A stretch of DNA of 16,327 bases from positions 1 through 16,327 of the IMG/VR virus record IMGVR_UViG_2609459850_000004, one strand, 5' to 3'. The notes beneath the pieces are model-generated. The model was not told the DNA's origin. It saw only the letters and a program-made list of their open reading frames with translations, and made no database searches. The first letter of the stretch is position 1; every line of letters starts with the position of its first letter. The position numbers and the translations under genes are program-made. Positions 1 through 14,696 of this stretch are shown one piece after another. The stretch comes from a virus. Taxonomy: Duplodnaviria > Heunggongvirae > Uroviricota > Caudoviricetes.

Positions 1-756
1 TTATTCAGAATCAATATCTTTTAAATCATCCTGAATCGCTTGTGCGTTCGGATTTTCCTGCGGTTTGAGTTCGCCGCCATTAGCGATGAAATCATGACGC
101 TGGAAGTACGCTTCGCGCACCATAATATAAGGATCGGACGACTGACGCAGCAGACCATCGGAATCCAGCAGCTGAGCGCGGGTTTCGATCCCTTCAAGCG
201 TCCATTTACCCACAGACATCGGCCAGGTCAGCCAGGAAAGAACCGGGTAAAGACCATCCGCCATATCACCACCGTCATCACGCAGCGTGAAGCTACCGTA
301 GAACGGTAACTGAACGTAAGGCCCATAACCCACGCCATAATGACCAAGCGTACTACCGAAGCGGTGAGGTTCAGTCCGTTGCAGTTTCGGGTTCGCCATC
401 CCTGCAACATCAATAAAACCGCCCATCCCCAAAATGGTGTTCAGGAAAAAGCGGGTAAAGTGGACCATCCCCTGATAAGGGTCGCCCTGCAAGAAGTAGT
501 TAACCATCACCGCAGGTTCTTCAAGGTTGCCAGTAAAGTTGCTCAAACCGTTACGCGCCGGTTGCGGAACATAATCACGCCAGGCGACAGCGACCGGTCG
601 AACAATATACGGGTCTAATACATTGAAGTTGAAGTTGTACATGGTGCGGTTGAACCCTTCTAACGGGTCAGAACGCCCTTGCTGATCTGTACCGGAACTC
701 GCACACCCCACCAGAAGCGTAGTTCCCAGAGCAAGCGCCGACAGGCGAAGCTTCAT
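1..756 (-). CDS. mlaA: MlaA (VacJ) outer-membrane lipoprotein of the Mla phospholipid-transport system
   Basis: Complete 251-aa ORF (stop = revcomp of nt 1-3). N-terminus MKLRLSALALGTTLLVGCASS has a lipoprotein signal with lipobox LLVGC. I recognise the sequence as E. coli MlaA/VacJ, and the neighbourhood (yfdC, argW) matches. Confidence 0.93.
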   Translation of the reverse strand: MKLRLSALALGTTLLVGCASSGTDQQGRSDPLEGFNRTMYNFNFNVLDPYIVRPVAVAWRDYVPQPARNGLSNFTGNLEEPAVMVNYFLQGDPYQGMVHFTRFFLNTILGMGGFIDVAGMANPKLQRTEPHRFGSTLGHYGVGYGPYVQLPFYGSFTLRDDGGDMADGLYPVLSWLTWPMSVGKWTLEGIETRAQLLDSDGLLRQSSDPYIMVREAYFQRHDFIANGGELKPQENPNAQAIQDDLKDIDSE

Positions 757-1049
757 AAATGTCTCCCTGTTTTTTTATGGCTTATGCAGTTTGCCATCCA
801 TGACGGAACGATACCGTATCCGCCTGTTTAGGTGTGGGCGATTGTAACAGCACGTCAACTGATGTCCAGACGCCCTGATTTGCTGATTTGATCATAGCCT
901 GGTAATCGCCACCCTGTAGGCTACTTGATTCTATAGAAACAGAAAAAGGCAAACGCAGCCTTTTCTACATTTTCAGAGTAACTCCCGTCAGTTGCGAGCA
1001 AAAAAGCCGCTACGCTTTAGCTATACGTGCTAATTCAAGAGAAGAGACC

Positions 1050-1982
1050 ATGGACAACGACAAAATTGATCAACACAGCGACGAAATTGAAGTTGAGAGC
1101 GAAGAAAAAGAGCGCGGCAAAAAAATAGAAATAGATGAAGACCGACTCCCCTCCCGGGCGATGGCAATTCATGAGCATATCCGCCAGGATGGTGAAAAAG
1201 AGCTGGAACGCGACGCAATGGCGCTACTGTGGTCAGCCATTGCGGCGGGTCTGTCGATGGGCGCTTCGTTACTGGCAAAAGGGATATTTCAAGTCGAACT
1301 GGAAGGTGTGCCGGGCAGCTTCTTGCTGGAGAATCTCGGTTATACCTTTGGTTTTATTATCGTCATTATGGCCCGCCAGCAATTATTTACCGAAAATACC
1401 GTGACTGCGGTACTACCCGTCATGCAAAAACCGACAATGAGCAACGTCGGCTTACTTATACGGTTATGGGGCGTCGTGCTGCTGGGTAATATTCTCGGGA
1501 CAGGTATTGCGGCGTGGGCATTTGAATATATGCCTATCTTCAATGAAGAAACTCGCGATGCATTTGTCAAAATCGGCATGGATGTGATGAAGAACACCCC
1601 CAGCGAGATGTTTGCCAACGCGATCATTTCCGGCTGGCTGATCGCCACTATGGTTTGGATGTTTCCTGCAGCGGGTGCGGCAAAGATTGTGGTGATTATA
1701 TTGATGACCTGGCTTATTGCCCTGGGTGACACCACCCATATCGTGGTCGGTTCTGTTGAAATCCTCTATCTGGTGTTTAACGGTACGCTGCACTGGAGCG
1801 ATTTCATCTGGCCCTTCGCACTACCTACTTTAGCGGGGAACATCTGCGGCGGCACCTTTATCTTCGCGTTAATGAGTCATGCACAGATTCGTAACGACAT
1901 GAGCAATAAGCGTAAAGCAGAAGCACGCCAAAAAGCAGAACGTGCGGAAAACATTAAGAAAAATTATAAAAACCCGGCATAA
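1050..1982 (+). CDS. yfdC: YfdC inner-membrane protein, formate/nitrite transporter (FNT) family
   Basis: 310-aa ORF with an acidic N-terminus followed by multiple hydrophobic segments. Recognised as E. coli YfdC, which lies between mlaA and argW in E. coli; TAA stop at 1980-1982. Confidence 0.88.
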   Translation: MDNDKIDQHSDEIEVESEEKERGKKIEIDEDRLPSRAMAIHEHIRQDGEKELERDAMALLWSAIAAGLSMGASLLAKGIFQVELEGVPGSFLLENLGYTFGFIIVIMARQQLFTENTVTAVLPVMQKPTMSNVGLLIRLWGVVLLGNILGTGIAAWAFEYMPIFNEETRDAFVKIGMDVMKNTPSEMFANAIISGWLIATMVWMFPAAGAAKIVVIILMTWLIALGDTTHIVVGSVEILYLVFNGTLHWSDFIWPFALPTLAGNICGGTFIFALMSHAQIRNDMSNKRKAEARQKAERAENIKKNYKNPA

Positions 1983-2017
1983 ATGGCGAGGGTTTAAGCA
2001 ATCGAGCGGCAGCGTAC

Positions 2018-2046
2018 TTACCCCGCACTCCATTAGCGGGTATACT
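2018..2046 (+). promoter_or_regulatory. Putative sigma70 promoter of the tRNA-Arg gene
   Basis: TATACT hexamer at 2041-2046, 11 nt upstream of the mature tRNA 5' end, with a weak -35-like TTACCC at 2018-2023 (17-bp spacer). Pattern only, no experimental support. Confidence 0.3.
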
Positions 2047-2057
2047 CATGCCGCATT

Positions 2058-2132
2058 GTCCTCTTAGTTAAATGGATATAACGAGCCCCTCCTAAGGGCT
2101 AATTGCAGGTTCGATTCCTGCAGGGGACACCA
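2058..2132 (+). tRNA. argW: tRNA-Arg (anticodon CCU)
   Basis: 75-nt cloverleaf: acceptor stem GTCCTCT/AGGGGAC, anticodon stem AGCCC/GGGCT with loop CTCCTAA (anticodon CCT), T-arm GGTTCGATTCC, discriminator A and encoded CCA at 2130-2132. Confidence 0.93.
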
Positions 2133-2293
2133 TTTATCAGTTCGCTCCCATCCGTACCAGTCCGCAAAATCCCCTGAATATCAAGCCTTCCGTAGATTCA
2201 CAGTTCGTCATGGTCCGCTTCAGATCGTTGACAGCCGCACTCCATGACGGGTAAAAAGTGGATAAAATAATTTTACCCACCGGATTTTTACCC

Positions 2294-3451
2294 ATGCTCA
2301 CCGTTAAGCAGATTGAAGCAGCAAAGCCGAAAGAAAAACCATACCGCCTACTCGATGGTAATGGCCTGTACCTTTATGTCCCTGTGTCAGGGAAAAAGGT
2401 ATGGCAGCTTCGCTACAAGATTGACGGTAAGGAGAAAATCCTGACCGTCGGAAAATATCCGCTAATGACTTTGCAGGAGGCAAGAGATAAAGCATGGACC
2501 GCGAGGAAAGACATCTCGGTTGGCATCGATCCGGTAAAAGCGAAAAAGGCTTCGTCTAACAACAATTCCTTTAGTGCCATTTACAAGGAATGGTACGAGC
2601 ACAAGAAGCAAGTCTGGTCAGTAGGCTATGCAACTGAACTTGCCAAAATGTTTGATGACGACATTTTACCCATCATCGGCGGTCTTGAGATTCAGGATAT
2701 TGAGCCGATGCAACTGCTGGAAGTAATCCGCAGATTTGAAGATCGCGGTGCAATGGAGCGAGCCAACAAAGCCCGCAGAAGATGCGGCGAGGTTTTCCGT
2801 TACGCTATTGTCACCGGCAGGGCTAAATATAACCCGGCACCTGACCTTGCTGACGCCATGAAGGGGTACCGCAAGAAGAACTTCCCGTTTCTTCCTGCAG
2901 ACCAGATCCCGGCATTCAATAAAGCACTGGCAACATTTTCAGGAAGTATCGTATCGCTCATTGCCACCAAGGTTTTACGCTACACTGCCCTAAGAACGAA
3001 AGAGCTTCGTTCCATGCTATGGAAGAACGTCGATTTTGAAAACAGGATTATCACCATCGACGCCAGTGTGATGAAGGGCCGCAAGATTCATGTTGTTCCT
3101 ATGTCAGACCAGGTGGTTGAGCTTCTCACTACGCTAAGCTCCATCACTAAACCAGTCTCAGAGTTTGTTTTTGCCGGGCGCAACGATAAGAAGAAGCCAA
3201 TCTGCGAGAACGCGGTATTGCTTGTGATCAAACAAATCGGCTATGAAGGTCTGGAAAGCGGTCACGGATTCAGGCATGAATTCAGCACGATTATGAACGA
3301 GCACGAATGGCCTGCCGACGCCATTGAAGTGCAACTGGCACATGCCAACGGCGGATCTGTGCGTGGAATTTACAATCATGCTCAGTATCTCGATAAGCGC
3401 AGAGAAATGATGCAGTGGTGGGCGGACTGGCTTGATGAAAAGGTAGAGTGA
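2294..3451 (+). CDS. intS: P4-family tyrosine integrase (IntS-like prophage integrase)
   Basis: ORF directly downstream of the tRNA and reading away from it. N-terminal arm-binding-type region (KPYRLLDGNGLYLYVPVSGKKVWQLRYKIDGKEK), C-terminal catalytic region with conserved R (LRTKELRS), HGFRHEF and a tyrosine (RGIYNHAQY). The ORF track starts at GTG 2258; I prefer ATG 2294 (385 aa) from my recollection of IntS. Confidence 0.9.
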   Translation: MLTVKQIEAAKPKEKPYRLLDGNGLYLYVPVSGKKVWQLRYKIDGKEKILTVGKYPLMTLQEARDKAWTARKDISVGIDPVKAKKASSNNNSFSAIYKEWYEHKKQVWSVGYATELAKMFDDDILPIIGGLEIQDIEPMQLLEVIRRFEDRGAMERANKARRRCGEVFRYAIVTGRAKYNPAPDLADAMKGYRKKNFPFLPADQIPAFNKALATFSGSIVSLIATKVLRYTALRTKELRSMLWKNVDFENRIITIDASVMKGRKIHVVPMSDQVVELLTTLSSITKPVSEFVFAGRNDKKKPICENAVLLVIKQIGYEGLESGHGFRHEFSTIMNEHEWPADAIEVQLAHANGGSVRGIYNHAQYLDKRREMMQWWADWLDEKVE

Positions 3452-3691
3452 GCGACCTTAAACTATCGAATAGCACAAAGCCTTGCAATCCAGTGCAAAG
3501 CTTTGTGCGTATCAGTTTTGTCTGAGTGTTCTACTGAAAACATAGTAAAATCGGTAACAGTTGGAAATCATTCAATACTCGCACTATCAGAAGTTCACCA
3601 GCCAGTCGTAGCCCGTACCTCCGTACGACGTGCTACGGTTTCATTTATCCGGTGCGCCGTAAAACCCCGTCCTTCAGGGCGTGGAGGATGT

Positions 3692-3775
3692 CAACTGGAC
3701 GCACTGGAGCTGGTCGATACTTCCGGTGCGCCAGATATTGAATGGCCTACGCCTCCGGCTGTTCAGGCCAGATGA
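3692..3775 (+). pseudogene. Relic of a second tail-fibre-assembly (Tfa) gene, C-terminal end only
   Basis: Plus-strand translation ends ...QLDALELVDTSGAPDIEWPTPPAVQAR*, the Tfa C-terminal signature (compare the minus-strand Tfa ending VDTSTAPDVIWPEQPEA). The upstream 60 codons of ORF 3503-3775 look like junk. It is convergent with, and overlaps, the 3' end of the intact tfa. Confidence 0.45.
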
Positions 3776-4163
3776 CATCAGGGGCCGTTGACGTATCAAC
3801 GGCTTTCACCGCTTTTTTATGCGCCATCCACTCAGACAATTTCGCTTTATCCTCGTCACTTATATCGCCGAGCATTAATTCACCCCGCCAGTCGGCGGTT
3901 ACTTCGTCAATCTGCTGTAGCCGTTGCTGGCGATATTGTTCTGCCGCCGCTATTTGCTCTTCATGCGTTGGAGGTGGCGCATCGACCCAAGCTGGCAGTC
4001 CAGTGCTATCTGCACCAAGCATTTTACCTTCAGGCCAGGCAATACCAGCAAATTGGCTGTAGAGGTTAACACTGATTTCAATAGCTGATTCAGGAATAAA
4101 CCTGCTTTCAGGTTCAATATAAAATCCGTTATCAACGGCGTCATAAAAGTATCTTTTTTCCAT
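3747..4163 (-). CDS. Phage tail-fibre assembly protein (Tfa, lambda Tfa / P2 gpG / Mu U family)
   Basis: 138 aa; C-terminus KAVKAVDTSTAPDVIWPEQPEA matches the conserved Tfa tail. It follows the fibre gene, with the stop of the fibre gene adjacent to its start. Confidence 0.85.
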   Translation of the reverse strand: MEKRYFYDAVDNGFYIEPESRFIPESAIEISVNLYSQFAGIAWPEGKMLGADSTGLPAWVDAPPPTHEEQIAAAEQYRQQRLQQIDEVTADWRGELMLGDISDEDKAKLSEWMAHKKAVKAVDTSTAPDVIWPEQPEA

Positions 4164-4164
4164 G

Positions 4165-4878
4165 TTAATAACCTATTGCCAATAAACAACCGGCAGCTTG
4201 AGCAGCCGTCCATGAAGTCCCATTAACTGTTCCTAAAGCACGAACTTTGACTGTCGTTCTGGTAGAGCCATTAATATCGAAGCCCCACGTTGTGCCGGAC
4301 GATCCATTCCACGAGCTAGCAGAAGCACCTGAGTCAATCGCAGTGGCATGAAGCAGAGCGTTAGGAAATGCTATAGGTAATGTAACGGTTGCTAATCCAG
4401 TCGAATCGGCAACAAATCCAGAGACCCACTGGAAAATGATATTTTGTTCAACCCCATCAATTAAAGCCGGGATCAATATTCTCCCGGTATTACCAGTTAC
4501 CCCTACAGCAGCGCCAAGTTTTGCCGCTTCTCCCAAACCAAGATTTTCGAGAGCCGTTTCCACCGTGCCGTCCGATTTGATATCGCCAAACGGATTCTTG
4601 CGGCTCAGGTATTCAACAGCAAACCCCGATCCCAGCAATTCAACAAAACCGGGCAGATCACCATTATCAAGCACATCCCGTTGCGTTTTGTCACTTACAA
4701 ACTGGGCCAGAGCTGCAGCAATAAAGCTGGCCTGCCGAATAACCTTATTGACTTGCGCACTGGATGCTTTACCTGCTGTAAATCCGGATAAAAGCGCGGG
4801 CAACGCTTCCCATTCCTCCTGCGATATAACATTGGCACTTCGATCCGTTGCAAACGCTTTAAAGTCATTTTTCGCCAT
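4165..4878 (-). CDS. Phage tail-fibre protein (short; gpH / Mu S position)
   Basis: Position between the gpI-like gene and tfa. Start ATG at 4878 overlaps the stop of the upstream gene (TGATG); the track's alternative start is 4896. Gly/Ser/Thr-rich C-terminal half typical of fibre distal domains. Assignment is by synteny plus composition. Confidence 0.65.
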   Translation of the reverse strand: MAKNDFKAFATDRSANVISQEEWEALPALLSGFTAGKASSAQVNKVIRQASFIAAALAQFVSDKTQRDVLDNGDLPGFVELLGSGFAVEYLSRKNPFGDIKSDGTVETALENLGLGEAAKLGAAVGVTGNTGRILIPALIDGVEQNIIFQWVSGFVADSTGLATVTLPIAFPNALLHATAIDSGASASSWNGSSGTTWGFDINGSTRTTVKVRALGTVNGTSWTAAQAAGCLLAIGY

Positions 4879-5558
4879 CAGAGTAATACTCCCCATGCTC
4901 CTACATCAAAACCACTGATGAATTCGTTATCTATATCAAAACCAAAAAATTTTGAGCCTTCCGATGGGGTTTCCACCGAAGGTGTTTCAATGCCTCCCGC
5001 CCATACCCCGGCGGCTTTTACTGTGAGATACCCCTGTTTAATTGCCGCAATTAACTCACGCGATACATCTGAAATATCAGTATCAGGAAAGACCCAGACC
5101 GATATCGTCATGTCCTGGTTATCGACTATCTGCATTCGCAGTCCGGATCCTGCTGTCGCCGCGTCAAGAATTACCGGAAGCGAATCATTCCGTCCGTCCC
5201 AGTTATTAATCGCAATCTTCGCTTTAAGAATGACACGATAAGTTTCATCGCTGAGATACATGTATCCAGAATCAGGATCATATGGCCCCTGCCATACCCC
5301 CTGATCATATCCAATCCCGTCGGCATCCCAGCTGAAATAGACACCTGAGATAGGCTGGCTGACAACACGGCTGCGTCCGATCCACAATCCAAGAATGTCA
5401 AGTTGCACACCAACCGCAGAGTCAATATCAAATGCAGTAATCAGCCCTCTGGTGGCAGCCGCAACATCAATAAGCGGCCGGGTCATCAGATCAACATGTG
5501 CAAGAAATTTAGGTTTGGTGGCGTGATAGTTTGTGATTAGTTCGGTGTATTTGCTCAT
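4878..5558 (-). CDS. Baseplate protein, P2 gpI / Mu gp48-like (DUF2313/YmfQ-like)
   Basis: 226 aa; ATGA start/stop overlap with the J-like gene; synteny J-I-fibre. Family recognised from memory. Confidence 0.65.
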   Translation of the reverse strand: MSKYTELITNYHATKPKFLAHVDLMTRPLIDVAAATRGLITAFDIDSAVGVQLDILGLWIGRSRVVSQPISGVYFSWDADGIGYDQGVWQGPYDPDSGYMYLSDETYRVILKAKIAINNWDGRNDSLPVILDAATAGSGLRMQIVDNQDMTISVWVFPDTDISDVSRELIAAIKQGYLTVKAAGVWAGGIETPSVETPSEGSKFFGFDIDNEFISGFDVGAWGVLL

Positions 5559-6754
5559 GACTCCACCGTTATAACGATATTTTCCGGGGTACAGGACGCA
5601 GATTCGTTATATCTGATATCAATGTTTGATGACGACAAAGCCCCAGGGGATTTCCCAATCGTCAGTTCCTGAATATCGTAATAGCGTGCATTCCCGCCAC
5701 TCACCACGCCAAGATTCGCCGGTGAGTAAATGCGACTTAAAAGGACCGAATCACCAATCATCAGACTATTGATATAGTCGGAAATAGCCGGCTGGATCTG
5801 CTGCCCTATCTGTGAGGTATAACCCGTAAAAACTTTTAATTTAATCCGGGCATAAACAGGCACATCACTGGAACGCGAGAATTTGATTACATGGGGATTG
5901 CCGTATTTATCCGGAACCGTAACGGATGTTGTACCGTGAGTGGCTGTACCCTGGCCTTTATTCCCTCTAATAGCCTGAGCAATATCCGTCACATCACCGC
6001 CATCCACAATTACAGCAACAGAGTGTGGCGGTAACCCGTTACCGTCCTCCGAACCAGTATCGTTTTCATAGAGTTTGTGGCGGGTTACACCGGTAACATT
6101 AGAAACAGCACCATCCAGTGCTTCAAATGGGGTTATTGATGGCAACGCAACACTTTGCGACTGGCGGATACGTAACTCCGCATCAGTTTCTGCTGGAGTG
6201 CCTACAGTAGCTGCAGCAGGATTGGTTACCGAAACCCAGCCACGGGTCGGTGTGTTAATGGTGGTAATAGTCCCGGCCATCGCCGCAACCGAACCGCTAT
6301 TCGCACATGTGGCCGTCACCAGCACAGTACCATCAACCCCGATTGCTACACTCGCGGGAAAATTCCAGATAATGCCGTTTTTATCCCGTGCGGAGCCATT
6401 CGTGATAGTCGTGCCAGCCGTACCGGTTAACAGAAGGTCAGCAGTAGAGTTTGTTGCTACTTTTCGCGTGATCCCGTTAATTTTCACATTGCTGCTAAGC
6501 GCTGCGGCCTGCGCTGTCGTCGGTGAAAACGAGTTGTAGATCTCGATAGCGGTATTGTTAGCATCATGCACAGCCAGAGCCACCAGCGCGACCATTTGCC
6601 CATCTTTGCTGTCTGGTTCGAGGTAGGCATCACTACCGTAAATCTGCCTGAAATAGCTGGTCAGTGTATCGAGGATTGTCTGGTAATCAGGCGCACTAAT
6701 CCCCTGGGCGGTTACCGTTGCCGATAGCCCCAGCGTGTCGAGGTTCAAAGCCAT
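5555..6754 (-). CDS. Baseplate J-like protein (P2 gpJ / Mu gp47 family)
   Basis: 399 aa; size and position between the W-like and I-like genes, with translational coupling on both sides. Confidence 0.75.
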   Translation of the reverse strand: MALNLDTLGLSATVTAQGISAPDYQTILDTLTSYFRQIYGSDAYLEPDSKDGQMVALVALAVHDANNTAIEIYNSFSPTTAQAAALSSNVKINGITRKVATNSTADLLLTGTAGTTITNGSARDKNGIIWNFPASVAIGVDGTVLVTATCANSGSVAAMAGTITTINTPTRGWVSVTNPAAATVGTPAETDAELRIRQSQSVALPSITPFEALDGAVSNVTGVTRHKLYENDTGSEDGNGLPPHSVAVIVDGGDVTDIAQAIRGNKGQGTATHGTTSVTVPDKYGNPHVIKFSRSSDVPVYARIKLKVFTGYTSQIGQQIQPAISDYINSLMIGDSVLLSRIYSPANLGVVSGGNARYYDIQELTIGKSPGALSSSNIDIRYNESASCTPENIVITVES

Positions 6755-7108
6755 TTATGCCTCGCTTGTTACAGTCGTCTGGCCGTAGATTGTGTCAATG
6801 GAGGAAGTGAAAGTGACGCGTCGGCTGTTGCCGTCATAATTGGTATCGAAGGAAAGAATCGACAGAACGCCCGGCGTGTCCTGTATGCGTTCGCGTATAG
6901 CCAGGATGTAGACGTCTGATCGCTGTTTCCCAAGCACTGACTGAACATACGGCGTACCTTCCGTCAGATCGAGAAACCACTGACCGCGCCACAGCTCGAA
7001 ACGGGTTTTTACGGCCTGGGCGACACACTCCGGACTGTCTATAAGGAAGGTGTCGTCACCCTGCCCGAAAGTGTAATCACCGTCAGCATCTTCTCGTCGG
7101 TATCGCAT
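6755..7108 (-). CDS. Small baseplate protein, gpW / gp25 / Mu gp46-like
   Basis: 117 aa; sits between the V-like and J-like genes and its start overlaps the V stop (TAATG). Assignment mainly by size and synteny. Confidence 0.5.
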   Translation of the reverse strand: MRYRREDADGDYTFGQGDDTFLIDSPECVAQAVKTRFELWRGQWFLDLTEGTPYVQSVLGKQRSDVYILAIRERIQDTPGVLSILSFDTNYDGNSRRVTFTSSIDTIYGQTTVTSEA

Positions 7109-7848
7109 TATTGCGGCCCTCCAGTAGTCCCCCCGCCTGTCTGAACTCCGCCATGTTTATGCGTGGCGACACTTATACCTGAAGCTGTCACATCATTCGT
7201 TACCGTAACCGGCCCAAGCATCGTCGCAGTACCACCACTTTCTCCCATTCCCTGAGACAGGTTACCGTTAATCGTTACGTTGCCGTTCAGCGTGATGGTC
7301 GGGGATGTGATTGTCGTTCCACCTTCAGCCGTAGCCGTAAGCTGGCCCGGCGTTTTAATGGTGATGTTATGTCCTGCAGCGACCTCTACGAACGCCGCAC
7401 CATCATCGGTTCGCAGCTGCGCGGCGCTGGTGCTGATACCACTGATTTTCTGTGCTTGCGACTGCGGGCCAACGATGGCGAACGCATCAGATAAGTCATG
7501 CTGGCGCGGGTCGACGGTCTCCTGAACGCCGCCGCTCTGCCACCAAAAATCAATGCAACGGTCGGCAAAGATCAGCAGGCACTCGTCGCCTTCTTTTACC
7601 GGAAAGGTCAGCGTGCAACCGCCGCCGCGCGGGAAGATAACCGGCACATCCACCAGCGGTTTTAATTCGGTGGAGCCATCGCCAACAATACCGCGAAGCG
7701 CCACTTCTACTGTGCAGGTTACAGCGTCAGGATCGAACGACTGAATGATGCCAGGCATCGCCACGCGCATTTGGGTAGACACTGAATCGGCAATGGCCTG
7801 CGCGGTCTGCTGCTCACCGCCGATCTGTGATTGAGTTGGAATTGGCAT
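7108..7848 (-). CDS. Baseplate spike/hub protein (P2 gpV / Mu gp45 family)
   Basis: 246 aa; C-terminus ...ATHKHGGVQTGGGTTGGPQ matches the gpV apex motif (P2 gpV ends HTHKHPGDSGGTTGSPL) and N-terminal ...MPGIIQSFDPDAVTCTVEV resembles the gpV OB-fold start. An internal Met (MRVAMPGII) could be the true start. Confidence 0.8.
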   Translation of the reverse strand: MPIPTQSQIGGEQQTAQAIADSVSTQMRVAMPGIIQSFDPDAVTCTVEVALRGIVGDGSTELKPLVDVPVIFPRGGGCTLTFPVKEGDECLLIFADRCIDFWWQSGGVQETVDPRQHDLSDAFAIVGPQSQAQKISGISTSAAQLRTDDGAAFVEVAAGHNITIKTPGQLTATAEGGTTITSPTITLNGNVTINGNLSQGMGESGGTATMLGPVTVTNDVTASGISVATHKHGGVQTGGGTTGGPQ

Positions 7849-8059: not shown

Positions 8060-8350
8060 ATGGGATTTAGATTTCGCAAAAGAATCCGGATTGCGCCCGG
8101 ACTCGCGATCAACATTAGCAAAAGCGGAGTAAGCACTTCGATTGGTGGTAAAGGTTCCACCATTAACATCGGGAAAAAAGGCGTAAAGATGACAAATGGC
8201 CTTCCCGGCACTGGGCTGTCGCATACCACTAACCTTTACTCTCCCGGAAAATCGACAGAAAAAAAACAACTTACTCATAAGCAAAAAATAATTAGAAACA
8301 TCCTGTTCGTAATTATTGTGTTTATTATAATTAAAGCTCAATATTTTTGA
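8060..8350 (+). CDS. Small DUF4236-like protein with C-terminal transmembrane helix
   Basis: 96 aa; RBS AGGAG at 8049-8053 with 6-nt spacer. N-terminus MGFRFRKRIRIAPGLAINISKSGVSTSIGGKG...PGTGLSHT matches the DUF4236 pattern as I remember it; C-terminal ILFVIIVFIIIKA is hydrophobic. AT-rich. Confidence 0.6.
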   Translation: MGFRFRKRIRIAPGLAINISKSGVSTSIGGKGSTINIGKKGVKMTNGLPGTGLSHTTNLYSPGKSTEKKQLTHKQKIIRNILFVIIVFIIIKAQYF

Positions 8351-8355
8351 CGCAT

Positions 8356-8386
8356 GCCCGCCTATCTGGCGGGCTATTTTACTTTT
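8356..8386 (+). terminator. Rho-independent terminator between convergent genes
   Basis: Perfect 7-bp stem GCCCGCC (8356-8362) / GGCGGGC (8368-8374), loop TATCT, then T-rich TATTTTACTTTT. The lipoprotein stop codon lies inside the stem. Confidence 0.6.
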
Positions 8387-9264
8387 CGGCAGTCGTATGT
8401 TGCATACTGTCGCGGCGCATCCATGCTGGCTTGTACCCACTGAGCGTTTAGGATGGCTTTTCCTTTACGTTTAATGTATTCAATACCAACCCAACGACCG
8501 GGCAGACTGGTAGCAACCATCCACTCCATTTTTATATTATCCGGTTCGTTGTTAGTGCTGCCACCAGCACCGATGGGAGTAATTTTTTGCGTCTCTGGTT
8601 TCGCGCCATTAATTCTGGCCCAGCCATCAGCAGAGGAAAGATCTATCCTATACGGTCCACAAACTATTATGTAATTGATGCCAAGTTTTTCGTTGCTGCG
8701 AGCTTTCCTGCTTTTCTCATAATCTTCCTTCGCAACATCATTCATCTTTTGATAGATAGCAGGTTGTTTTAAAGAAAACTCATTCAGCTTCTTAATAAAG
8801 TTTTCTCGCGGAACCTCTGCAAGCCCCATAGATTTTCTATCAAGGATATAGTCATCATATATCTTTGACACAACAGAAAGTGATGACAGTTTTTTAGCTA
8901 AATCATTTGCAAAGTTTAGATAATTAAGTGGTGAGTTGTCTCTTATATCAATAGCTCTAACTCCACCTGTACCGTATTCATGATAAGCAGCATAAAAAAC
9001 AGGTATACTTTCAGGTTTTTTGTTAATCGCTTTAATTAGTCCTTCTGGACCGCAAGACTCTCCACTCCAGTCAATAAGCGACTTCCCTTTCGATTTCCAT
9101 GTTTGGCAATCATCAGCTGATAAAATTAAAATTGGCTGCCACCCCGGGCGTTTTTTGTAACTAACATTCTTATCAGAATTGAAGCCTGCATTTGCGCATC
9201 CAGAAACGAGCAGCACCGACAGGAAAATCACACTGTATCGAAGTCCATTCATGTTCTTATACAC
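8374..9264 (-). CDS. Lipoprotein of unknown function
   Basis: 296 aa; signal peptide with lipobox LLVSGC; strong RBS AGGAGGAGG upstream of the GTG start at 9264 (alternative ATG at 9252). AT-rich compared with neighbours. Confidence 0.65.
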   Translation of the reverse strand: MYKNMNGLRYSVIFLSVLLVSGCANAGFNSDKNVSYKKRPGWQPILILSADDCQTWKSKGKSLIDWSGESCGPEGLIKAINKKPESIPVFYAAYHEYGTGGVRAIDIRDNSPLNYLNFANDLAKKLSSLSVVSKIYDDYILDRKSMGLAEVPRENFIKKLNEFSLKQPAIYQKMNDVAKEDYEKSRKARSNEKLGINYIIVCGPYRIDLSSADGWARINGAKPETQKITPIGAGGSTNNEPDNIKMEWMVATSLPGRWVGIEYIKRKGKAILNAQWVQASMDAPRQYATYDCRKVK

Positions 9265-9360: not shown

Positions 9361-10065
9361 TTACATTTCAAAAACTCTGCTTACCAGGCGCATTTCGCCC
9401 AGGGGATCACCATAATAAAATGCTGAGGCCTGGCCTTTGCGTAGTGCACGCATCACCTCAATACCTTTGATGGTGGCGTAAGCCGTCTTCATGGATTTAA
9501 ATCCCAGCGTGGCGTTGATTATCCGTTTCAGTTTGCCATGATCGCATTCAATCACGTTGTTCCGGTACTTAATCTGTCGGTGTTCAACGTCAGACGGGCA
9601 CCGGCCTTCGCGTTTGAGCAGAGCAAGCGCGCGACCATAGGCGGGCGCTTTATCCGTGTTGATGAATCGCGGGATCTGCCACTTCTTCACGTTGTTGAGG
9701 ATTTTACCCAGAAACCGGTATGCAGCTTTGCTGTTACGACGGGAGGAGAGATAAAAATCGACAGTGCGGCCCCGGCTGTCGACGGCCCGGTACAGATACG
9801 CCCAGCGGCCATTGACCTTCACGTAGGTTTCATCCATGTGCCACGGGCAAAGATCGGAAGGGTTACGCCAGTACCAGCGCAGCCGTTTTTCCATTTCAGG
9901 CGCATAACGCTGAACCCAGCTGTCAATCGTGGAGTGATCGACATTCACTCCGCGTTCAGCCAGCATCTCCTGCAGCTCACGGTAACTGATGCCGTATTTG
10001 CAGTACCAGCGTACGGCCCACAGAATGATGTCACGCTGAAAATGCCGGCCTTTGAATGGGTTCAT
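9361..10065 (-). CDS. tnp26: IS26 transposase Tnp26 (DDE, IS6 family)
   Basis: Translation MNPFKGRHFQRDIILWAVRWYCKYGISYRELQEMLAERGVNVDHSTI...GDPLGEMRLVSRVFEM recognised as Tnp26. ATG at 10065 lies 64 bp inside the element end; the track ORF begins at an upstream TTG (10083). Confidence 0.95.
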   Translation of the reverse strand: MNPFKGRHFQRDIILWAVRWYCKYGISYRELQEMLAERGVNVDHSTIDSWVQRYAPEMEKRLRWYWRNPSDLCPWHMDETYVKVNGRWAYLYRAVDSRGRTVDFYLSSRRNSKAAYRFLGKILNNVKKWQIPRFINTDKAPAYGRALALLKREGRCPSDVEHRQIKYRNNVIECDHGKLKRIINATLGFKSMKTAYATIKGIEVMRALRKGQASAFYYGDPLGEMRLVSRVFEM

Positions 10066-10114
10066 GTGCAGCTCCATCAGCAAAAGGGGATGATAAGTTT
10101 ATCACCACCGACTA

Positions 10115-10128
10115 TTTGCAACAGTGCC
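10115..10128. repeat. IS26 terminal inverted repeat (14 bp)
   Basis: TTTGCAACAGTGCC, the perfect reverse complement of 9309-9322. Confidence 0.95.
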
Positions 10129-10154
10129 CGTGCAGTTAAGCAGAGGGCTGAATA

Positions 10155-11306
10155 ATGGTGAACGAGAGACGAGATTATGAGGTTAATTTCCTGTACTACC
10201 CGGAAGTGTTCGCTGCGGCTCTGTCGCGTGTTGAACCAGACACGTCAGTCCTGGGCTGGCTGGGCCAGGCTCGCGCTCTGGCGTGCTGGTGTGAGCTGCT
10301 GAGGCTCGACCCACTGGAGACCTGTGTGGAGTGGTCTGCGCGTGGTGTGAACGCGGGTAAGGCCGACAGGGCAATGTTAGCGTCGGCGCTGCGTGACCTG
10401 GATGACCTCGACCGGCTGGCGGCGGCTGGGGCGTTCCTGCGCTCCTCCGGGGTGGCTGCTGACGTTGCTGCCGGGCGCATCGCTGTTCGTGAGCCCACCG
10501 AGGACGAGCTGGCTGCTCGTCAGGCGCATCTGGTTGCACTACGGGAACGTGCGGCTGCTGCTGCGGCGAAGCTGACGGAGGCTCGCATTAAGGCAACCGG
10601 TAGGGCGCGGATGCTGCTGCATCGCGCCAAAAAGCCGGGGAATGCGGCGCTGTACTGGAAGGCCAAGGAGCGAGCTGCGGAGCGTTTGCTGCCGTGCCCT
10701 GACGACGTGAAGTGCTCGGACTGGAGCACGTTCCTGCCGGTGCTGGGTCGCGTGTGGTGGAATGAGTCGCTTCTGGTGCCGCTGTACGGGGTGAACGAGT
10801 CACTACGGTTGGAGTGTATGTCAGTGGAGGTGATTTGCGGTCGCGCCAACCCTGAGGCGGCAGGTTCGCTGGGCGAGAAGCGTGGCCTCGAGAATGCACC
10901 GCGTGAGGGGCTGTTTTACCCGTTCGACCTGTCCAGCGTCCGTTCTGGTAACCCTCTGGTCATCTGCGAGGGGTTCATGTCGGGGCTGGCGCTCTCTCTG
11001 CTGATGGGCGGCAAGCTGCCGGTGATCTGCGCGATGTCGGTGGGTAACTTCGGGGCGACAGTGCAGACGCTGAATAAGTTTGTTATGGGTGACTCCCCGT
11101 TCGTACTGGTACCGGACATTGGCGGGCAGGATCTGGCTATCGATCAGGCTATCCCGAATGCCCGGGTGATCGACCTGTCGGCGGTACCGGGAGCCGAGGG
11201 CGTGGACGGCTACGACCCGTTCGATCTGCTGGCGCGTCATGGTGTCGAGATGGGACGTAAGTATCTGCGGAGCTTGTTTCGTGAGGCGCGTGACGCGAGC
11301 CTGTAG
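10155..11306 (+). CDS. Toprim-like domain protein (primase-related?), high GC
   Basis: 383 aa; RBS GAGGG 7 nt upstream of the ATG. C-terminal half carries NPLVICEGFMSGLALSLL...PVICAMSVGNFGATVQ...FVLVPDIGGQDLAIDQ, resembling Toprim motifs (DnaG-like EGxxD...DxD region). The Ala/Arg-rich N-terminal half is unrecognised. In-frame stop at 10149-10151 shows the ORF is not truncated by IS26. Confidence 0.55.
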   Translation: MVNERRDYEVNFLYYPEVFAAALSRVEPDTSVLGWLGQARALACWCELLRLDPLETCVEWSARGVNAGKADRAMLASALRDLDDLDRLAAAGAFLRSSGVAADVAAGRIAVREPTEDELAARQAHLVALRERAAAAAAKLTEARIKATGRARMLLHRAKKPGNAALYWKAKERAAERLLPCPDDVKCSDWSTFLPVLGRVWWNESLLVPLYGVNESLRLECMSVEVICGRANPEAAGSLGEKRGLENAPREGLFYPFDLSSVRSGNPLVICEGFMSGLALSLLMGGKLPVICAMSVGNFGATVQTLNKFVMGDSPFVLVPDIGGQDLAIDQAIPNARVIDLSAVPGAEGVDGYDPFDLLARHGVEMGRKYLRSLFREARDASL

Positions 11307-11337
11307 TGGTACCAGGTTTCTCTCTCTCGTTGTTCTC

Positions 11338-11363
11338 AGCCCGCTTCGGCGGGCTTTTATTTG
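11338..11363 (+). terminator. Rho-independent terminator
   Basis: Stem AGCCCGC / GCGGGCT with TTCG tetraloop, followed by TTTTATTTG; 32 nt after the stop at 11306. Confidence 0.6.
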
Positions 11364-11374
11364 AGGATCTCCCC

Positions 11375-11680
11375 ATGACCGACCAGACCACCACCATCGC
11401 CGACCTGGCGCTCTCACAATCCGCGTTTCTCGTCTCTCAGGCTGTCGTTGAGCTGGACGCCATGTTCGGCGAGGGCTATGCCGCTGCTCACCCGGCTGTG
11501 CTGGCTCAATTCCTGCAGACGGCGGGGGTCATCTTCGCCACACAGCTGCAGGCTTCTGCCGCGTTCGACCTTGCCTCGCAGCTCGACCGCCTGATTGGCT
11601 TGGGGCTGGCTTGCTGCAAGCCAATCAGGGTGCCTCGCACTAAAACGCCGGGGCCGGCTGCGATCAGTCCTTTGCTATGA
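11375..11680 (+). CDS. Hypothetical small protein (101 aa)
   Basis: ATG at 11375 preceded by GAGGA at 7-nt spacing, immediately after the terminator. Ala/Leu-rich with no recognisable motif. The track ORF begins upstream at 11306 without an RBS. Confidence 0.45.
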   Translation: MTDQTTTIADLALSQSAFLVSQAVVELDAMFGEGYAAAHPAVLAQFLQTAGVIFATQLQASAAFDLASQLDRLIGLGLACCKPIRVPRTKTPGPAAISPLL

Positions 11681-11828
11681 GGCGACGCCCCAGGGGTTCG
11701 CCCCTGATCAGCTGGAGTCCGTAGACCGGACGTCTGATGCCCGGTGGCGGGCGTTCTACCTCGCCAGCTATGGCTACTGCCTCGAGTACGCGGGGTTTTG
11801 ACCTGGGCGGCGGCTGCCGCGCTACCGG

Positions 11829-12356
11829 TTACTTCAGGTCAGGCATCCGGCGGGTGATCACCGTGTTGATGCGGTCGTTGTTCCATGGGCGACCGTTCGA
11901 CTGCAGGAGCCCTGCCTCGTTCAGCGCCTGGGCGATAGCTTTGTTGTCGTAGCGGAATCCCCGATCGCGCTGCTCCTCCCTCATGCGCCGTATGGTGGCC
12001 ATCACCTCGGCCTCGTCGTAATGCCCCGAAAATTCAGCGCCAGCGGGGCGCTGTGCTGCGTTTTGTGTTTCAGATGAGTTACTAGTCAGCTTTTCAGCCC
12101 GTGGCCTTGTAGCGCGTCCTGTTGGCTTCTGTAGCACATTGTGTTTCAGCGTATTCGAGATGTCCTGCAGCAGCTCCACCATCAGGTCGAGGCGGTTGCC
12201 GCTCTCCCCCTGCGGCTCTGGTATGCCAAGGTATGCACGGAGTGCGTCGGTAATCACGTCGGTGCGGGTACGGTTCGTTTTCTCGGCCAGCTCGTTCGTC
12301 TGCTCGAGCAGGTCGGCGGGGAGACGTAGGCTGAATGTCGGGCTTTTGCGCTGCAT
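11829..12356 (-). CDS. Ribbon-helix-helix DNA-binding protein with recombinase-like C-terminal domain
   Basis: 175 aa from ATG 12356, with AGGAG-containing RBS. N-terminus MQRKSPTFSLRLPADLLEQTNELAEKTNRTRTDVITDALRAYL is a typical RHH (CopG/Arc-like) segment. C-terminus EVMATIRRMREEQRDRGFRYDNKAIAQALNEAGLLQSNGRPWNNDRINTVI resembles the recombinase-family DNA-binding domain pattern (IA..LN..G....G..W....V..I). No serine-recombinase catalytic domain is present. Confidence 0.55.
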   Translation of the reverse strand: MQRKSPTFSLRLPADLLEQTNELAEKTNRTRTDVITDALRAYLGIPEPQGESGNRLDLMVELLQDISNTLKHNVLQKPTGRATRPRAEKLTSNSSETQNAAQRPAGAEFSGHYDEAEVMATIRRMREEQRDRGFRYDNKAIAQALNEAGLLQSNGRPWNNDRINTVITRRMPDLK

Positions 12357-12860
12357 CCGTGTTGCTCCTGTGTGGTCTGGTGCCACCGATTGAAACACGT
12401 TTGTAACTTCTCGTCTATTTCGACGTGTTGCGCTTGTGCTGCATAACCGGTACGGGTCGAGCCCTTCGGCTCGACTCTCTGGTGCCAGTGGACAAGCCCT
12501 GTGGACAATTTGCCGTGTCAGTGAATAAATGCGTGGCGCGATCACGACAGCTCGATAAGCGGTCGCCGTTCAGTGGCGTGAAGGGTTAGGATCGGTTAAG
12601 CTGATCGTCGTTCGTGGATTATGTTGGGTGATCTGCGGGCACAAAAAAAGCACCTGGCCGGGTGCTTTGATTGCCGGGGTTAAACCCCGTAGTTTCGAGT
12701 CAGTGTCTTGACGGACGTACTCGAAGGAAATCATACATCACGTTGGGTGATTCTCAAATCCTCGCTGAGAATTGTATCACGTCGATAAGATCGTGCAAGT
12801 CGATTTCCTCCGTAATCCCCCGCCTGACGCCGACTCCTACGTTTTTAAAGGAGTTGTAAC

Positions 12861-14420
12861 GTGCCAAAAACTAAACAAGAAATAGCCACTGTAACGCCGA
12901 TCACCGCTGCACCGTCACCGCTGTCGCTAAAATTGGGCGATGCGCTGTTTTCTGTCTTGTCGGTGTCTGCGGACTGGTCTGGTGACTACCGCGCTCAATT
13001 CGAGCTGTATGGCCTGAATGTAAAAGCTATCAACTCTGCCGTCGGCACTGCCGTCTGGCACGCTGGCAAGGGGCGGTTCCTCTCTGTCCTAAATGGCTCC
13101 CTGACCGAGTTCGATAAGGGCGACGGAATGAAGCTGCTGGAGGACTCCTGCGGCAAGTTCTGGCACCGCACCGATGCGTTTATCGCCCGCCTGACTGACC
13201 TCAAAATCAAGACCGACGACAAGGTAACCAAGGCGTGTATCGATATGGCTCGGGCTGTTCGTCAGGCGGGGGCTGAGTTCATCATGCTGCGCCGTCAGGT
13301 GGCAGTCGTTCGCCTCGACGTGGACATGTTCGCCACGGCTCCTCGCGTCGAACTGGTGGGTGAAACTGTGACGTTCGTCCGTCCTCATGCTCCCTATCCG
13401 GTGGCTAATGCCGACAGTGACGTGGTGGCTGATTGGCTGGTTCATTTCCCTCAATGCCATGAGTTCCTCGACGCGCTGGTTGCAGCCCGCTTTGCCTCAA
13501 GCCGTAAGAATGCCTACCTGTTTTTCCGTGCGCAGTCCGATTGGGGTAAGGGGCTGCTGTTTGGTGCTGGCGGCGTTCTGTCACGCCTGGGAGCGACGGT
13601 GGAGCTGTCCGAGGGGGAGCTGCTCAACATCCTGAGCGGTGCCAACTCCGGTGTAACGGCTAGTCACTTCATGGGGGCGCTGGCGCTGATCGTCAACGAA
13701 TGCACCAGGGTGACGAAAAAGCACTTTCGTCTTGAGGAGTCGCTGGCTCTGACGCCGAAGTACCTCACGACGCAGTGCGTGAACCTGTACATGAAAATTT
13801 TCACCAGTGCCGACCCGATCCCCGGACTGTCCGACTCCGACGGAATTGACCCGCAGGTGGCGAACCGCTTTTCTATGCTCGATCTGCAGGGCGACATCAA
13901 GACGCGCCCGCTGTTCCTGTCCGACAAGGGACGCTATGTCGACAGCCTGACGTCGTTCTTTGCCGCCGAGCTGAATGCCAGGGTGGCGTCCTATCAGGCT
14001 AAGGGCTTTGAGACCGCTCGCCGCGATGCCGACCATGTTCTGGCTGCTTTCACCACTGCGCATGGGTTGGCGAATGCTGCCGGGCTGATCACCGACGCGT
14101 ATGACGAAATTCGGGCTGAGTGGGTGGCGTTCGTCCATGGGCGTGTTGCTGATGGGCACCCGGACTTCCTCACCTTCGAATCAAAGGCTGGTTTGGTTCT
14201 CCGCTCTCCTGTCGGATGCTGGGGTAAGTTCCTCGACTGGTACGTGGACAAAAGCGAACCGCTGCGCCGTGCTCGCCTGATGCATGACCGCGATCTGATC
14301 ATCGGCTGCGCGAAAAAATACCGCGATGTTGGTGGCGCTGCTGAAGGCAAGGGGGTGCTCATCCCGTTCGTGTCCGGCTCGATGCCCGACAACGTCCACC
14401 GGTTCCGGTACAAAAATTGA
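12861..14420 (+). CDS. Hypothetical 519-aa protein, candidate replication-associated (unrecognised family)
   Basis: Long high-GC ORF with GTG start preceded by AAGGAG at 7-nt spacing, followed by a strong terminator and an iteron array. No family recognised; the replication role is inferred from context only. Confidence 0.65.
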   Translation: MPKTKQEIATVTPITAAPSPLSLKLGDALFSVLSVSADWSGDYRAQFELYGLNVKAINSAVGTAVWHAGKGRFLSVLNGSLTEFDKGDGMKLLEDSCGKFWHRTDAFIARLTDLKIKTDDKVTKACIDMARAVRQAGAEFIMLRRQVAVVRLDVDMFATAPRVELVGETVTFVRPHAPYPVANADSDVVADWLVHFPQCHEFLDALVAARFASSRKNAYLFFRAQSDWGKGLLFGAGGVLSRLGATVELSEGELLNILSGANSGVTASHFMGALALIVNECTRVTKKHFRLEESLALTPKYLTTQCVNLYMKIFTSADPIPGLSDSDGIDPQVANRFSMLDLQGDIKTRPLFLSDKGRYVDSLTSFFAAELNARVASYQAKGFETARRDADHVLAAFTTAHGLANAAGLITDAYDEIRAEWVAFVHGRVADGHPDFLTFESKAGLVLRSPVGCWGKFLDWYVDKSEPLRRARLMHDRDLIIGCAKKYRDVGGAAEGKGVLIPFVSGSMPDNVHRFRYKN

Positions 14421-14426
14421 ACAATA

Positions 14427-14448
14427 ACCCGCTTCGGCGGGTTTTTTT
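14427..14448 (+). terminator. Rho-independent terminator
   Basis: Stem ACCCGC / GCGGGT with TTCG loop followed by T7 (14442-14448); 7 nt after the TGA at 14418-14420. Confidence 0.7.
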
Positions 14449-14454
14449 ATGGCT

Positions 14455-14535
14455 TGGAACCTCGCTGGAACCTCGCTGGAACCTCACTGGAACCTTCTTA
14501 AACCCGCGCCATTGCTGGTTGGAACCTTTGGAACC
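14455..14535 (+). repeat. Direct iteron-like array of heptamer TGGAACC
   Basis: TGGAACC at 14455, 14466, 14477 and 14488 (exact 11-bp period, unit CTGGAACCTCG), plus two more copies at 14520 and 14529. Confidence 0.8.
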
Positions 14536-14606
14536 TGATTTTCTAACCTTCTCTCTCCAATAACGAAAGCTCTCTCAATTTCCCTGATTACTCTTTTTAA
14601 AAAATA

Positions 14607-14696
14607 GGTTCCAAGGTTCCATCGTTGATTTTAAAAGATTTTTTAAGGTTCCAATGCGGTTCCAAGGCGGTTCCACAAGGTTCCAAGGCGGTTCCA
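14607..14696 (-). repeat. Inverted-orientation array of the same heptamer (GGTTCCA)
   Basis: GGTTCCA at 14607, 14615, 14647, 14658, 14669, 14679 and 14690 (10-11-bp period in the last five, unit GCGGTTCCAAG). Separated from the direct array by an AT-rich spacer (14536-14606). Confidence 0.8.

What the first reader, a model, noticed from the sequence alone, without database searches (positions are those of the whole stretch)
3692..3775. Relic of an invertible tail-fibre switching segment: a convergent second Tfa C-terminus overlapping the tfa 3' end
The plus strand encodes ...VDTSGAPDIEWPTPPAVQAR*, a Tfa C-terminal signature, tail-to-tail with the intact minus-strand tfa and overlapping it by about 29 bp. 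Convergent Tfa pairs are the hallmark of Gin/Pin/Cin-invertible fibre segments (Mu G segment, e14). Here no invertase and no alternative fibre gene remain, and the integrase follows within about 240 bp, implying deletion of the other half.
Basis: partly seen in the sequence, partly recalled or inferred. Interest (0 to 1): 0.45.

Follow-up and report, generated by a model that had tools for sequence, protein, structure and literature searches.

The report
Leftover stub of tail-fibre inversion switch
This is an 81-base dead stub of a second tail-fibre chaperone gene, left when a prophage lost the other half of its Pin-type DNA-inversion switch; it is real but ordinary, and the same stub occurs in phage HK97 and is annotated as a pseudogene in other E. 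coli genomes.

Summary
Window 3695-3775 (+) encodes LDALELVDTSGAPDIEWPTPPAVQAR*. It is 100% identical to the C-terminus of intact Tfa proteins and overlaps the intact minus-strand tfa (3747-4163) by 29 bp. Of its 81 nt, 52 lie outside the overlap, so it is not an antisense artefact.

The adjacent fibre gene keeps one 26-bp Pin/Gin-type crossover site (4528-4553), matching the e14 site at 25 of 26 positions. It sits where similarity to related fibres breaks, at the ENLGLGE codons. The window's fibre-tip + tfa cassette is 96% identical to one half of a two-cassette segment. Two other E. coli genomes carry that segment in opposite orientations between two such sites, next to a pin gene.

The window has no invertase, no second site and no second fibre tip, so the switch is frozen.

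One correction: the truncation is not local. The same breakpoint (3694/3695) occurs in phages HK97 and HK106 and in 7 complete E. coli genomes. Other relatives carry stubs of 12 and 96 codons (K-12 CPS-53) or full copies.

Verdict: a known kind of relic, of low interest.

The parts
3695..3775 (+). Stub (pseudogene fragment) of the alternate tail-fibre assembly gene tfa': the last 26 codons plus stop, LDALELVDTSGAPDIEWPTPPAVQAR*
   Evidence: Homology to intact tfa genes starts at 3695. It is 26/26 identical to the C-termini of intact Tfa proteins. PGAP annotates the equivalent 81 nt as 'tail fiber assembly protein, incomplete, missing N-terminus' in L001, L007 and L008.
3747..3775 (.). 29-bp tail-to-tail overlap of the two convergent tfa reading frames; each frame runs about 9 codons past its own W-P codons through the other
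   Evidence: Coordinates. The same 29-bp overlap is seen in e14, K-12 CPS-53, L001, L002, L007, L012, L013, L014 and L015.
3747..4163 (-). Intact tail-fibre assembly (chaperone) gene tfa, 138 aa
   Evidence: Pfam Caudo_TAP E 2e-32. It is 96% identical at DNA level to the tfa of L013/L014.
4165..4527 (-). Variable, receptor-binding part (Sv) of the tail-fibre gene, with a gp53-like C-terminal domain
   Evidence: Pfam Gp53-like_C E 5e-9. It is unrelated to the 606R2 fibre after the crossover site and 96% identical to the L013/L014 cassette.
4528..4553 (.). Single surviving 26-bp Pin/Gin-type crossover site, TTCTCCCAAACCAAGATTTTCGAGAG, encoding ENLGLGE on the minus strand; it carries one G>A change in the conserved GGTTT half-site that is synonymous (Asn AAC>AAT) for the fibre
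   Evidence: One match in the window, 0 in 200 shuffles. It is 25/26 identical to the e14, L001, L012 and L014 sites. The pattern is validated on the Mu gix sites.
4554..4896 (-). Constant N-terminal part (Sc) of the tail-fibre gene
   Evidence: 94% aa identity to the phage vB_EcoM-606R2 fibre up to ...ALENLGLGE, then none.
3452..3694 (.). Non-coding spacer that replaces the lost half of the segment. It contains the integrase-downstream hairpin 3473-3508, a terminator-like hairpin 3621-3638, and a short dispersed repeat 3638-3694.
   Evidence: Hairpin z-scores are -3.5 and -4.7. 3452-3523 is shared with K-12 downstream of intS. 3472-3649 is shared with HK106, HK633 and the ends of lambdoid prophages. 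3638-3694 is also found just upstream of stx1A.
2258..3451 (+). IntS-type tyrosine integrase next to tRNA-Arg(CCT) argW (2058-2132); this is the prophage end that abuts the stub
   Evidence: Pfam Phage_integrase, Arm-DNA-bind_3. tRNA. 99.2% identical to E. coli mlaA-yfdC-argW-intS.
4878..7848 (-). Upstream tail genes of the same operon: DUF2612 protein (4878-5558), baseplate J (5555-6754), a 117-aa protein (6755-7108) and a spike/baseplate V-like protein (7108-7848)
   Evidence: Pfam hits. About 97% DNA identity over 4527-5600 to 606R2, L001 and L008.

Best explanation
Window 3695-3775 is a non-functional vestige of the second tail-fibre assembly gene (tfa') of a Pin/Gin-type invertible tail-fibre segment of the e14 kind.

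In the ancestral system a serine invertase recombined two inverted 26-bp sites. One site lay inside the fibre gene at the ENLGLGE codons. The other lay beyond a second, oppositely oriented fibre-tip + tfa cassette. Inversion therefore joined either tip, with its matching chaperone, to the constant N-terminal part of the fibre.

The window retains the constant part, one crossover site, one complete tip + tfa cassette, and the last 26 codons of the other tfa. The rest of tfa', the second tip, the second site and the invertase are gone, replaced by a 243-bp non-coding spacer that runs up to the integrase. The switch is therefore frozen in one orientation.

The stub itself does nothing as a gene. 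Its last 29 nt persist because they are also the 3' end of the working tfa on the other strand. The remaining 52 nt are simply what lies inside the deletion breakpoint.

That breakpoint was not made here. It is shared with phages HK97 and HK106 and a few other prophages, so it was inherited or imported by recombination.

Shown: the anatomy, the homologies, the shared breakpoint, and inversion of the same cassette in relatives. Inferred: that the stub has no function, and the order of events.
For: - Stub identity: 26/26 aa to intact Tfa C-termini; the homology starts sharply at 3695.
- Crossover site at 4528-4553: 0 expected by chance, and 25/26 identical to the e14 site. The pattern also finds both annotated Mu G-segment boundaries.
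- Fibre similarity to 606R2 is 94% up to the site and absent after it.
- L013 and L014 carry the window's cassette (96%) in a 1.6-kb segment. The segment is 99.8% identical between them, but inverted relative to both flanks, with the junctions inside the 26-bp sites and a pin gene alongside.
- Relative 606R2 (97% identical tail genes) keeps full tfa', Sv', both sites and a truncated invertase.
- The window has no Pin homologue (best E 2.0), no second tip and no second site.
- The same breakpoint is at 99.2% identity in HK97 and HK106 and in 7 of 5426 E. coli genomes.
- Independent stubs exist: 12 codons (L015, same phage family at argW) and 96 codons (K-12 CPS-53), all with the 29-bp overlap.
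- e14 inversion has been observed experimentally (PMC4272514).
Against: - The window is a single sequence, so the absence of inversion is inferred from the missing parts, not observed.
- The stub is almost undiverged from working copies (1-2 differences in 85 nt). That is unexpected for an old, unconstrained relic. It points to recent origin, repeated homogenisation by recombination, or some constraint that I did not identify.
- That the stub has no function was not tested experimentally.
Confidence: 0.9

Rival explanations
1. The Tfa-like peptide on the plus strand is a by-product of reading the antisense of the minus-strand tfa 3' end, or a chance match; there was never a second gene.
For: 29 of the 81 nt are antisense to tfa. 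Both peptides contain the same VDTS-APD-WP signature.
Against: The conserved VDTSGAPDIEWP part is encoded at 3713-3748, almost entirely outside the overlap. The 81 nt are 97-99% identical to the 3' ends of intact tfa genes and 26/26 identical at protein level.
Confidence: 0.01
2. The stub comes from a tail-to-tail join of two unrelated phage tail modules (for example tandem prophages or an illegitimate inversion-duplication), not from a site-specific invertible segment.
For: Phage tail-fibre regions are highly mosaic. The spacer next to the stub is itself a patchwork shared with lambdoid phage ends.
Against: The same tail-to-tail joint, with its exact 29-bp overlap, is the centre of segments bounded by two crossover sites beside pin in e14, 606R2, L013 and L014. 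The window's cassette is found inverted between such sites. The window's fibre gene keeps its own site at the Sc/Sv junction.
Confidence: 0.03
3. The retained stub and spacer are kept because they do a job. They might act as a 3'-end or terminator element for the convergent tail and integrase transcripts. Alternatively, they might serve as a homology patch that lets the phage capture new fibre-tip + tfa cassettes from resident prophages by homologous recombination.
For: - The stub is nearly identical to working copies, and the same stub is carried by the viable phages HK97 and HK106.
- The tail-to-tail block is conserved at 90-99% DNA identity in phages whose Tfa proteins are otherwise only 35-38% identical.
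- Lambda recombines with defective prophages within tfa (PMC3945230).
- A strong hairpin lies at 3473-3508.
Against: - There is no terminator-like site on the minus strand downstream of tfa.
- Folding of 3620-3760 (-) and 3600-3700 (+) is no better than shuffles (z -1.0 and -0.8).
- There is no Rfam family above threshold.
- Stubs of 12, 26 and 96 codons all exist, which argues against a required length or sequence.
Confidence: 0.06

Closest known systems
Invertible P segment of the E. coli K-12 e14 element (pinE; stfP/ycfK-tfaP and stfE-tfaE)
   Same: - The same convergent tfa pair with the identical 29-bp overlap.
- The stub is 24/26 aa identical to the TfaP C-terminus.
- The crossover site in the fibre gene is 25/26 identical and lies at the same ENLGLGE codons.
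- The fibre tip is of the gp53-like type.
   Different: e14 has both sites, both cassettes and an intact pinE, and is seen to invert (PMC4272514). The window has one site, one cassette plus a 26-codon stub, and no invertase.
tfaS pseudogene of the K-12 CPS-53/KpLE1 prophage (convergent with yfdK)
   Same: - The same chromosomal site (argW-intS).
- The same layout: an intact fibre gene with one crossover site, an intact tfa, a convergent N-terminally truncated tfa overlapping it by 29 bp, and no invertase.
   Different: - The K-12 stub is 96 codons and of the TfaE type, and its intact gene (yfdK) is of the type that is the stub here. The joint therefore sits the other way round relative to the fibre gene.
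- K-12 has gtrABS-type genes between intS and the stub; the window does not.
Region downstream of tfa (gp29) in lambdoid phages HK97 and HK106
   Same: The same stub with the same breakpoint and the same upstream spacer (99.2% over 3650-3780; 3472-3788 overall). It lies between the int/attP region and the convergent tfa. The HK106 stf also keeps a site-like sequence.
   Different: These are siphoviruses with lambda-type integrases and different fibre and tfa genes. In them the stub sits in a viable phage rather than in a truncated prophage.
Mu G segment (S/U, S'/U', gin) and the P1 C segment
   Same: The same logic: a constant fibre part, a 26-bp site at the junction, two convergent tip + chaperone cassettes, and an adjacent serine invertase.
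   Different: - Mu U and U' are separated by 28 bp rather than overlapping.
- The stub does not align with Mu U'.
- The intact tfa is only 31% identical to Mu U over 72 aa.
- P1 was not examined.

Membership tests
Functional Gin/Pin/Cin-type serine-invertase tail-fibre switch | Serine invertase gene adjacent to the segment | tested here: not met
   tblastn of PinE against the whole window gives a best E of 2.0. No resolvase-like ORF is listed.
Functional Gin/Pin/Cin-type serine-invertase tail-fibre switch | Two 26-bp crossover sites in inverted orientation | tested here: not met
   Only one site (4528-4553) is found with up to 3 mismatches. A half-site search finds no partner. The pattern finds two sites each in Mu, e14, 606R2, L013 and L014.
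Functional Gin/Pin/Cin-type serine-invertase tail-fibre switch | Crossover site inside the fibre ORF at the constant/variable junction | tested here: met
   The site encodes ENLGLGE. Identity to the 606R2 fibre is 94% before it and absent after it. Identity to the L014 cassette starts there.
Functional Gin/Pin/Cin-type serine-invertase tail-fibre switch | Two complete, convergent fibre-tip + tfa cassettes | tested here: not met
   There is one complete cassette (3747-4527). Only 26 codons of the second tfa remain, and there is no second tip.
Functional Gin/Pin/Cin-type serine-invertase tail-fibre switch | Segment found in both orientations | not testable with these tools
   The window is a single sequence. 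In relatives the same cassette is found in both orientations (L013 versus L014).
Caudo_TAP (PF02413) tail-fibre assembly protein, applied to the stub | Match to the Pfam model above its gathering score (full domain about 131 positions) | tested here: not met
   19.6 bits against a cut-off of 22.1; only profile positions 111-130 are matched. It is a fragment of a member, not a member.
N-terminally truncated tfa pseudogenes of E. coli prophages (tfaS type) | C-terminal tfa fragment convergent with an intact tfa and overlapping it by 29 bp, with no start of its own | tested here: met
   The equivalent features are annotated in K-12, L001, L002, L007 and L008.

The most novel reading that the evidence does not exclude
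The roughly 85-bp tail-to-tail tfa joint, of which this stub is half, might be kept nearly identical across P2-like, Mu-like-baseplate and lambdoid phages because it is used. It could be a portable homology patch. Even after the invertase is lost, such a patch would let a phage swap in new receptor-binding tip + chaperone cassettes from resident prophages by homologous recombination. On this reading the stub in HK97-type phages and in this prophage is retained by selection rather than by accident.
Probability: 0.12. Interest if true: 0.4.

Novelty: already known. Interest (0 to 1): 0.1.

Why it matters
It matters little beyond correct annotation. 3695-3775 should be marked as a tfa pseudogene fragment, and the 90-aa ORF 3503-3775 should not be called a gene. 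The prophage's host-range switch should be regarded as frozen.

As a comparative example it is tidy. E. coli prophages show a graded series of decay of Pin-type fibre switches, and one truncation breakpoint has spread between unrelated phage types:
- intact (e14);
- invertase truncated or stopped, with both cassettes kept (606R2, L013, L014);
- stubs of 96, 26 and 12 codons.

This fits the established picture of tail-fibre mosaicism.

Tried and rejected
- **Mu alignment.** Mu U/U' do not overlap, so Mu is not the right model; e14 is.
- **Longer stub.** I looked for a frameshifted continuation of tfa' upstream of 3695. There is none in any frame.
- **Opposite-orientation idea.** I tested whether the window's intact tfa is the same gene as K-12's tfaS stub, frozen the other way round. 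Only the last ~20 aa match well (35% overall), so the genes are not the same, although the joint is oriented oppositely.
- **Terminator or structured-RNA role for the stub.** No minus-strand terminator was found, fold z-scores are not significant, and no Rfam family exceeds its threshold (CssrB 23 bits against 76).
- **Apparent recombinase remnant.** An early lead suggested that 3537-3649 is a remnant lying just 3' of a recombinase gene (L002). The same sequence lies at many prophage ends without any recombinase. It is a common non-coding module, not evidence of the lost invertase.
- **Literature.** The primary papers (Sandmeier 1992; Mehta et al. 2004) are not in the held library. Statements about them rest on citations in PMC3945230 and PMC4272514 and on my own knowledge.

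Full report
**Setting.** The window is E. coli chromosome. Positions 1-3451 (mlaA, yfdC, tRNA-Arg(CCT) at 2058-2132, intS) are 99.2% identical to many complete genomes. This is the argW attachment site of CPS-53/KpLE1-type prophages. The integrase (2258-3451, +) is followed by 243 bp without a gene. After that comes a leftward tail operon: tfa 3747-4163, fibre 4165-4896, DUF2612 4878-5558, baseplate J 5555-6754, and further baseplate and spike genes.

**The observation.** The plus strand ends ...LDALELVDTSGAPDIEWPTPPAVQAR* at 3775 and overlaps the minus-strand tfa by 29 bp (3747-3775).
- Aligned with intact tfa genes (606R2 tfaG, K-12 yfdK, e14 tfaP), homology begins sharply at 3695 and runs to the stop. 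Upstream there is none.
- tblastn gives 26/26 identities to two intact Tfa C-termini and no upstream continuation in any frame.
- 52 of the 81 nt lie outside the overlap and are 97-99% identical to working genes. The antisense-artefact explanation therefore fails.
- RefSeq annotation marks the equivalent 81 nt as an incomplete tail fibre assembly protein in other genomes.

**Evidence that it comes from an invertible segment.**
- A consensus for Gin/Pin/Hin crossover sites finds exactly one match in the window, at 4528-4553 (none in 200 shuffles).
- The same pattern finds both annotated G-segment boundaries of Mu and two sites flanking the e14 P segment next to pinE.
- The window's site is 25/26 identical to the e14 fibre-gene site and encodes ENLGLGE.
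- The window's fibre is 94% identical to that of phage vB_EcoM-606R2 up to that motif and unrelated after it. This is the classical boundary between the constant and variable parts.
- 606R2 has tail genes about 97% identical to the window's. It still has a full-length convergent tfa, a second fibre tip, both sites and a truncated invertase.

**The strongest evidence.** The window's own tip + tfa cassette (3695-4605) is 96% identical to one half of a 1.6-kb segment in strains C11 (L013) and 23AR1101 (L014). That segment is 99.8% identical between the two strains. However, it is inverted relative to both flanks (baseplate genes on one side, pin on the other), and the switch points fall inside the two 26-bp sites. 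The cassette kept in the window therefore belongs to a segment that has demonstrably inverted in nature. Inversion of the e14 segment has been seen directly in cultures (PMC4272514). DUF2612 and Tfa genes are statistically enriched next to programmed inversions (PMC9881135).

**What is missing.** The window has no Pin homologue (best tblastn E 2.0), no second fibre tip and no second site or half-site. The surviving site carries a G>A change in the conserved GGTTT. This change is synonymous for the fibre (Asn AAC>AAT), consistent with loss of constraint on the site but not on the protein. The switch is frozen.

**Where the truncation happened.**
- The 3694/3695 breakpoint is not private to this locus. 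The junction 3650-3780 is 99.2% identical in phages HK97 and HK106 and is present in 7 of 5426 complete E. coli genomes, at other chromosomal sites.
- In strain FJ_Ec_21 even the last ~70 nt of the intS-type gene, the spacer and the stub are contiguous, as they are here.
- Other relatives have independently truncated stubs. Strain 1223 (same phage family, also at argW) has 12 codons (APDINWPAPPEA*) abutting the integrase terminator. K-12 CPS-53 has 96 codons (tfaS).
- All share the 29-bp overlap. The joint is oriented oppositely relative to the fibre gene in K-12 and in the window, as expected if different lineages froze in different orientations.

**The spacer (3452-3694)** is a patchwork of non-coding modules.
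- 3452-3523 holds a strong hairpin (3473-3508; z -3.5 and -4.7) and is shared with K-12 downstream of intS.
- 3472-3649 recurs near the int/att ends of lambdoid phages and prophages.
- 3638-3694 is a short dispersed repeat.
- None of the spacer is a remnant of the invertase.

**Function.** I found no sign that the stub works as an RNA element or terminator. Its near-identity to working copies is the one feature a pure-vestige reading does not predict. Recent origin or recombinational homogenisation is the likeliest reason, and lambda is known to recombine with defective prophages within tfa (PMC3945230).

**Comparison and verdict.** This is a relic of an e14/Pin-type fibre switch. It is equivalent in kind to the K-12 tfaS pseudogene and identical in breakpoint to the stub in HK97. 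It is not a functional member of the invertible-segment family, because three defining features were tested and not met. The finding is already known biology and of low interest.

Noticed in passing
window 3638-3694: A ~55-bp sequence immediately left of the stub is a dispersed repeat. The query containing it (3600-3700) matched 3179 of 5426 E. coli genomes, including plasmids. One copy lies 42-98 bp upstream of stx1A in an Stx1 prophage (L009 4001-4057). Its nature is unknown and it has no Rfam family.
   Followed up: partly
window 3621-3650; L007 3845-3953 and 4957-5146: A terminator-like hairpin (CCGTACGACGTGCTACGG + TTTCATTTAT) marks a recurrent mosaic joint. In L007 a GIY-YIG cargo gene is inserted between two copies of this sequence. 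Many matches in other phages start or stop at 3643-3649. It looks like a moron insertion point.
   Followed up: partly
window 3643/3644 versus L001, HK106 (L011) and L007: The window lacks a 25-bp unit (ATTTATCTCCCGAAACTCCATTTGG) that relatives have. The unit is flanked by 7-bp direct repeats (ATTTATC), which suggests a slippage deletion.
   Followed up: yes
window 3473-3508: A 15-bp-arm hairpin lies just after the integrase stop and is significantly stable on both strands. It is conserved downstream of intS in K-12 and in HK633 and Stx2 phage ends. It is a probable bidirectional terminator between the convergent int and tail transcripts.
   Followed up: partly
L010 (phage HK633) 3576-3656, homologous to window about 3545-3625: The HK633 record annotates this non-coding stretch downstream of its IntS/Sf6-type integrase as attP. 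For KplE1-type modules, PMC2951348 describes the intS promoter as overlapping attL, so the attachment site lies on the integrase's 5' side. The HK633 annotation may therefore be mistaken.
   Followed up: no
L012 3899-4249; L013 4829-5095; L014 2538-3092: In three relatives that keep both cassettes and both sites, the invertase gene is itself truncated or carries an internal stop. Loss of the invertase seems to precede loss of the second cassette.
   Followed up: partly
window 3452-3694 versus K-12 (L003 6344-9455): Between intS and the tfa stub, K-12 CPS-53 has the O-antigen glucosylation genes (yfdG, yfdH and a third gene) plus yodE. The window has none of them.
   Followed up: partly
window 9361-10083 and 10100-15000: An IS6/IS26-family transposase gene (DDE_Tnp_IS240, E 6e-49) lies beyond the last tail genes. 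It is followed by a GC-rich stretch (55-63% against about 48%) with large ORFs lacking Pfam matches (383 aa, 519 aa) and a ribbon-helix-helix protein. This looks like foreign, plasmid-like DNA.
   Followed up: no
window 8374-9264 (-): A 296-aa ORF with a lipoprotein-like N-terminus and no Pfam match lies in a low-GC (42%) patch next to a DUF4236 gene (8060-8350). It is probably prophage cargo.
   Followed up: no
L011 (phage HK106) 4875-4900: The side tail fibre gene of lambdoid phage HK106 also contains a crossover-site-like sequence (TTCTCCCAAACCAAGGTTTGTGCGAG, 2 mismatches to the consensus). There is no invertase in the annotated stretch examined (HK106 17355-24697).
   Followed up: no
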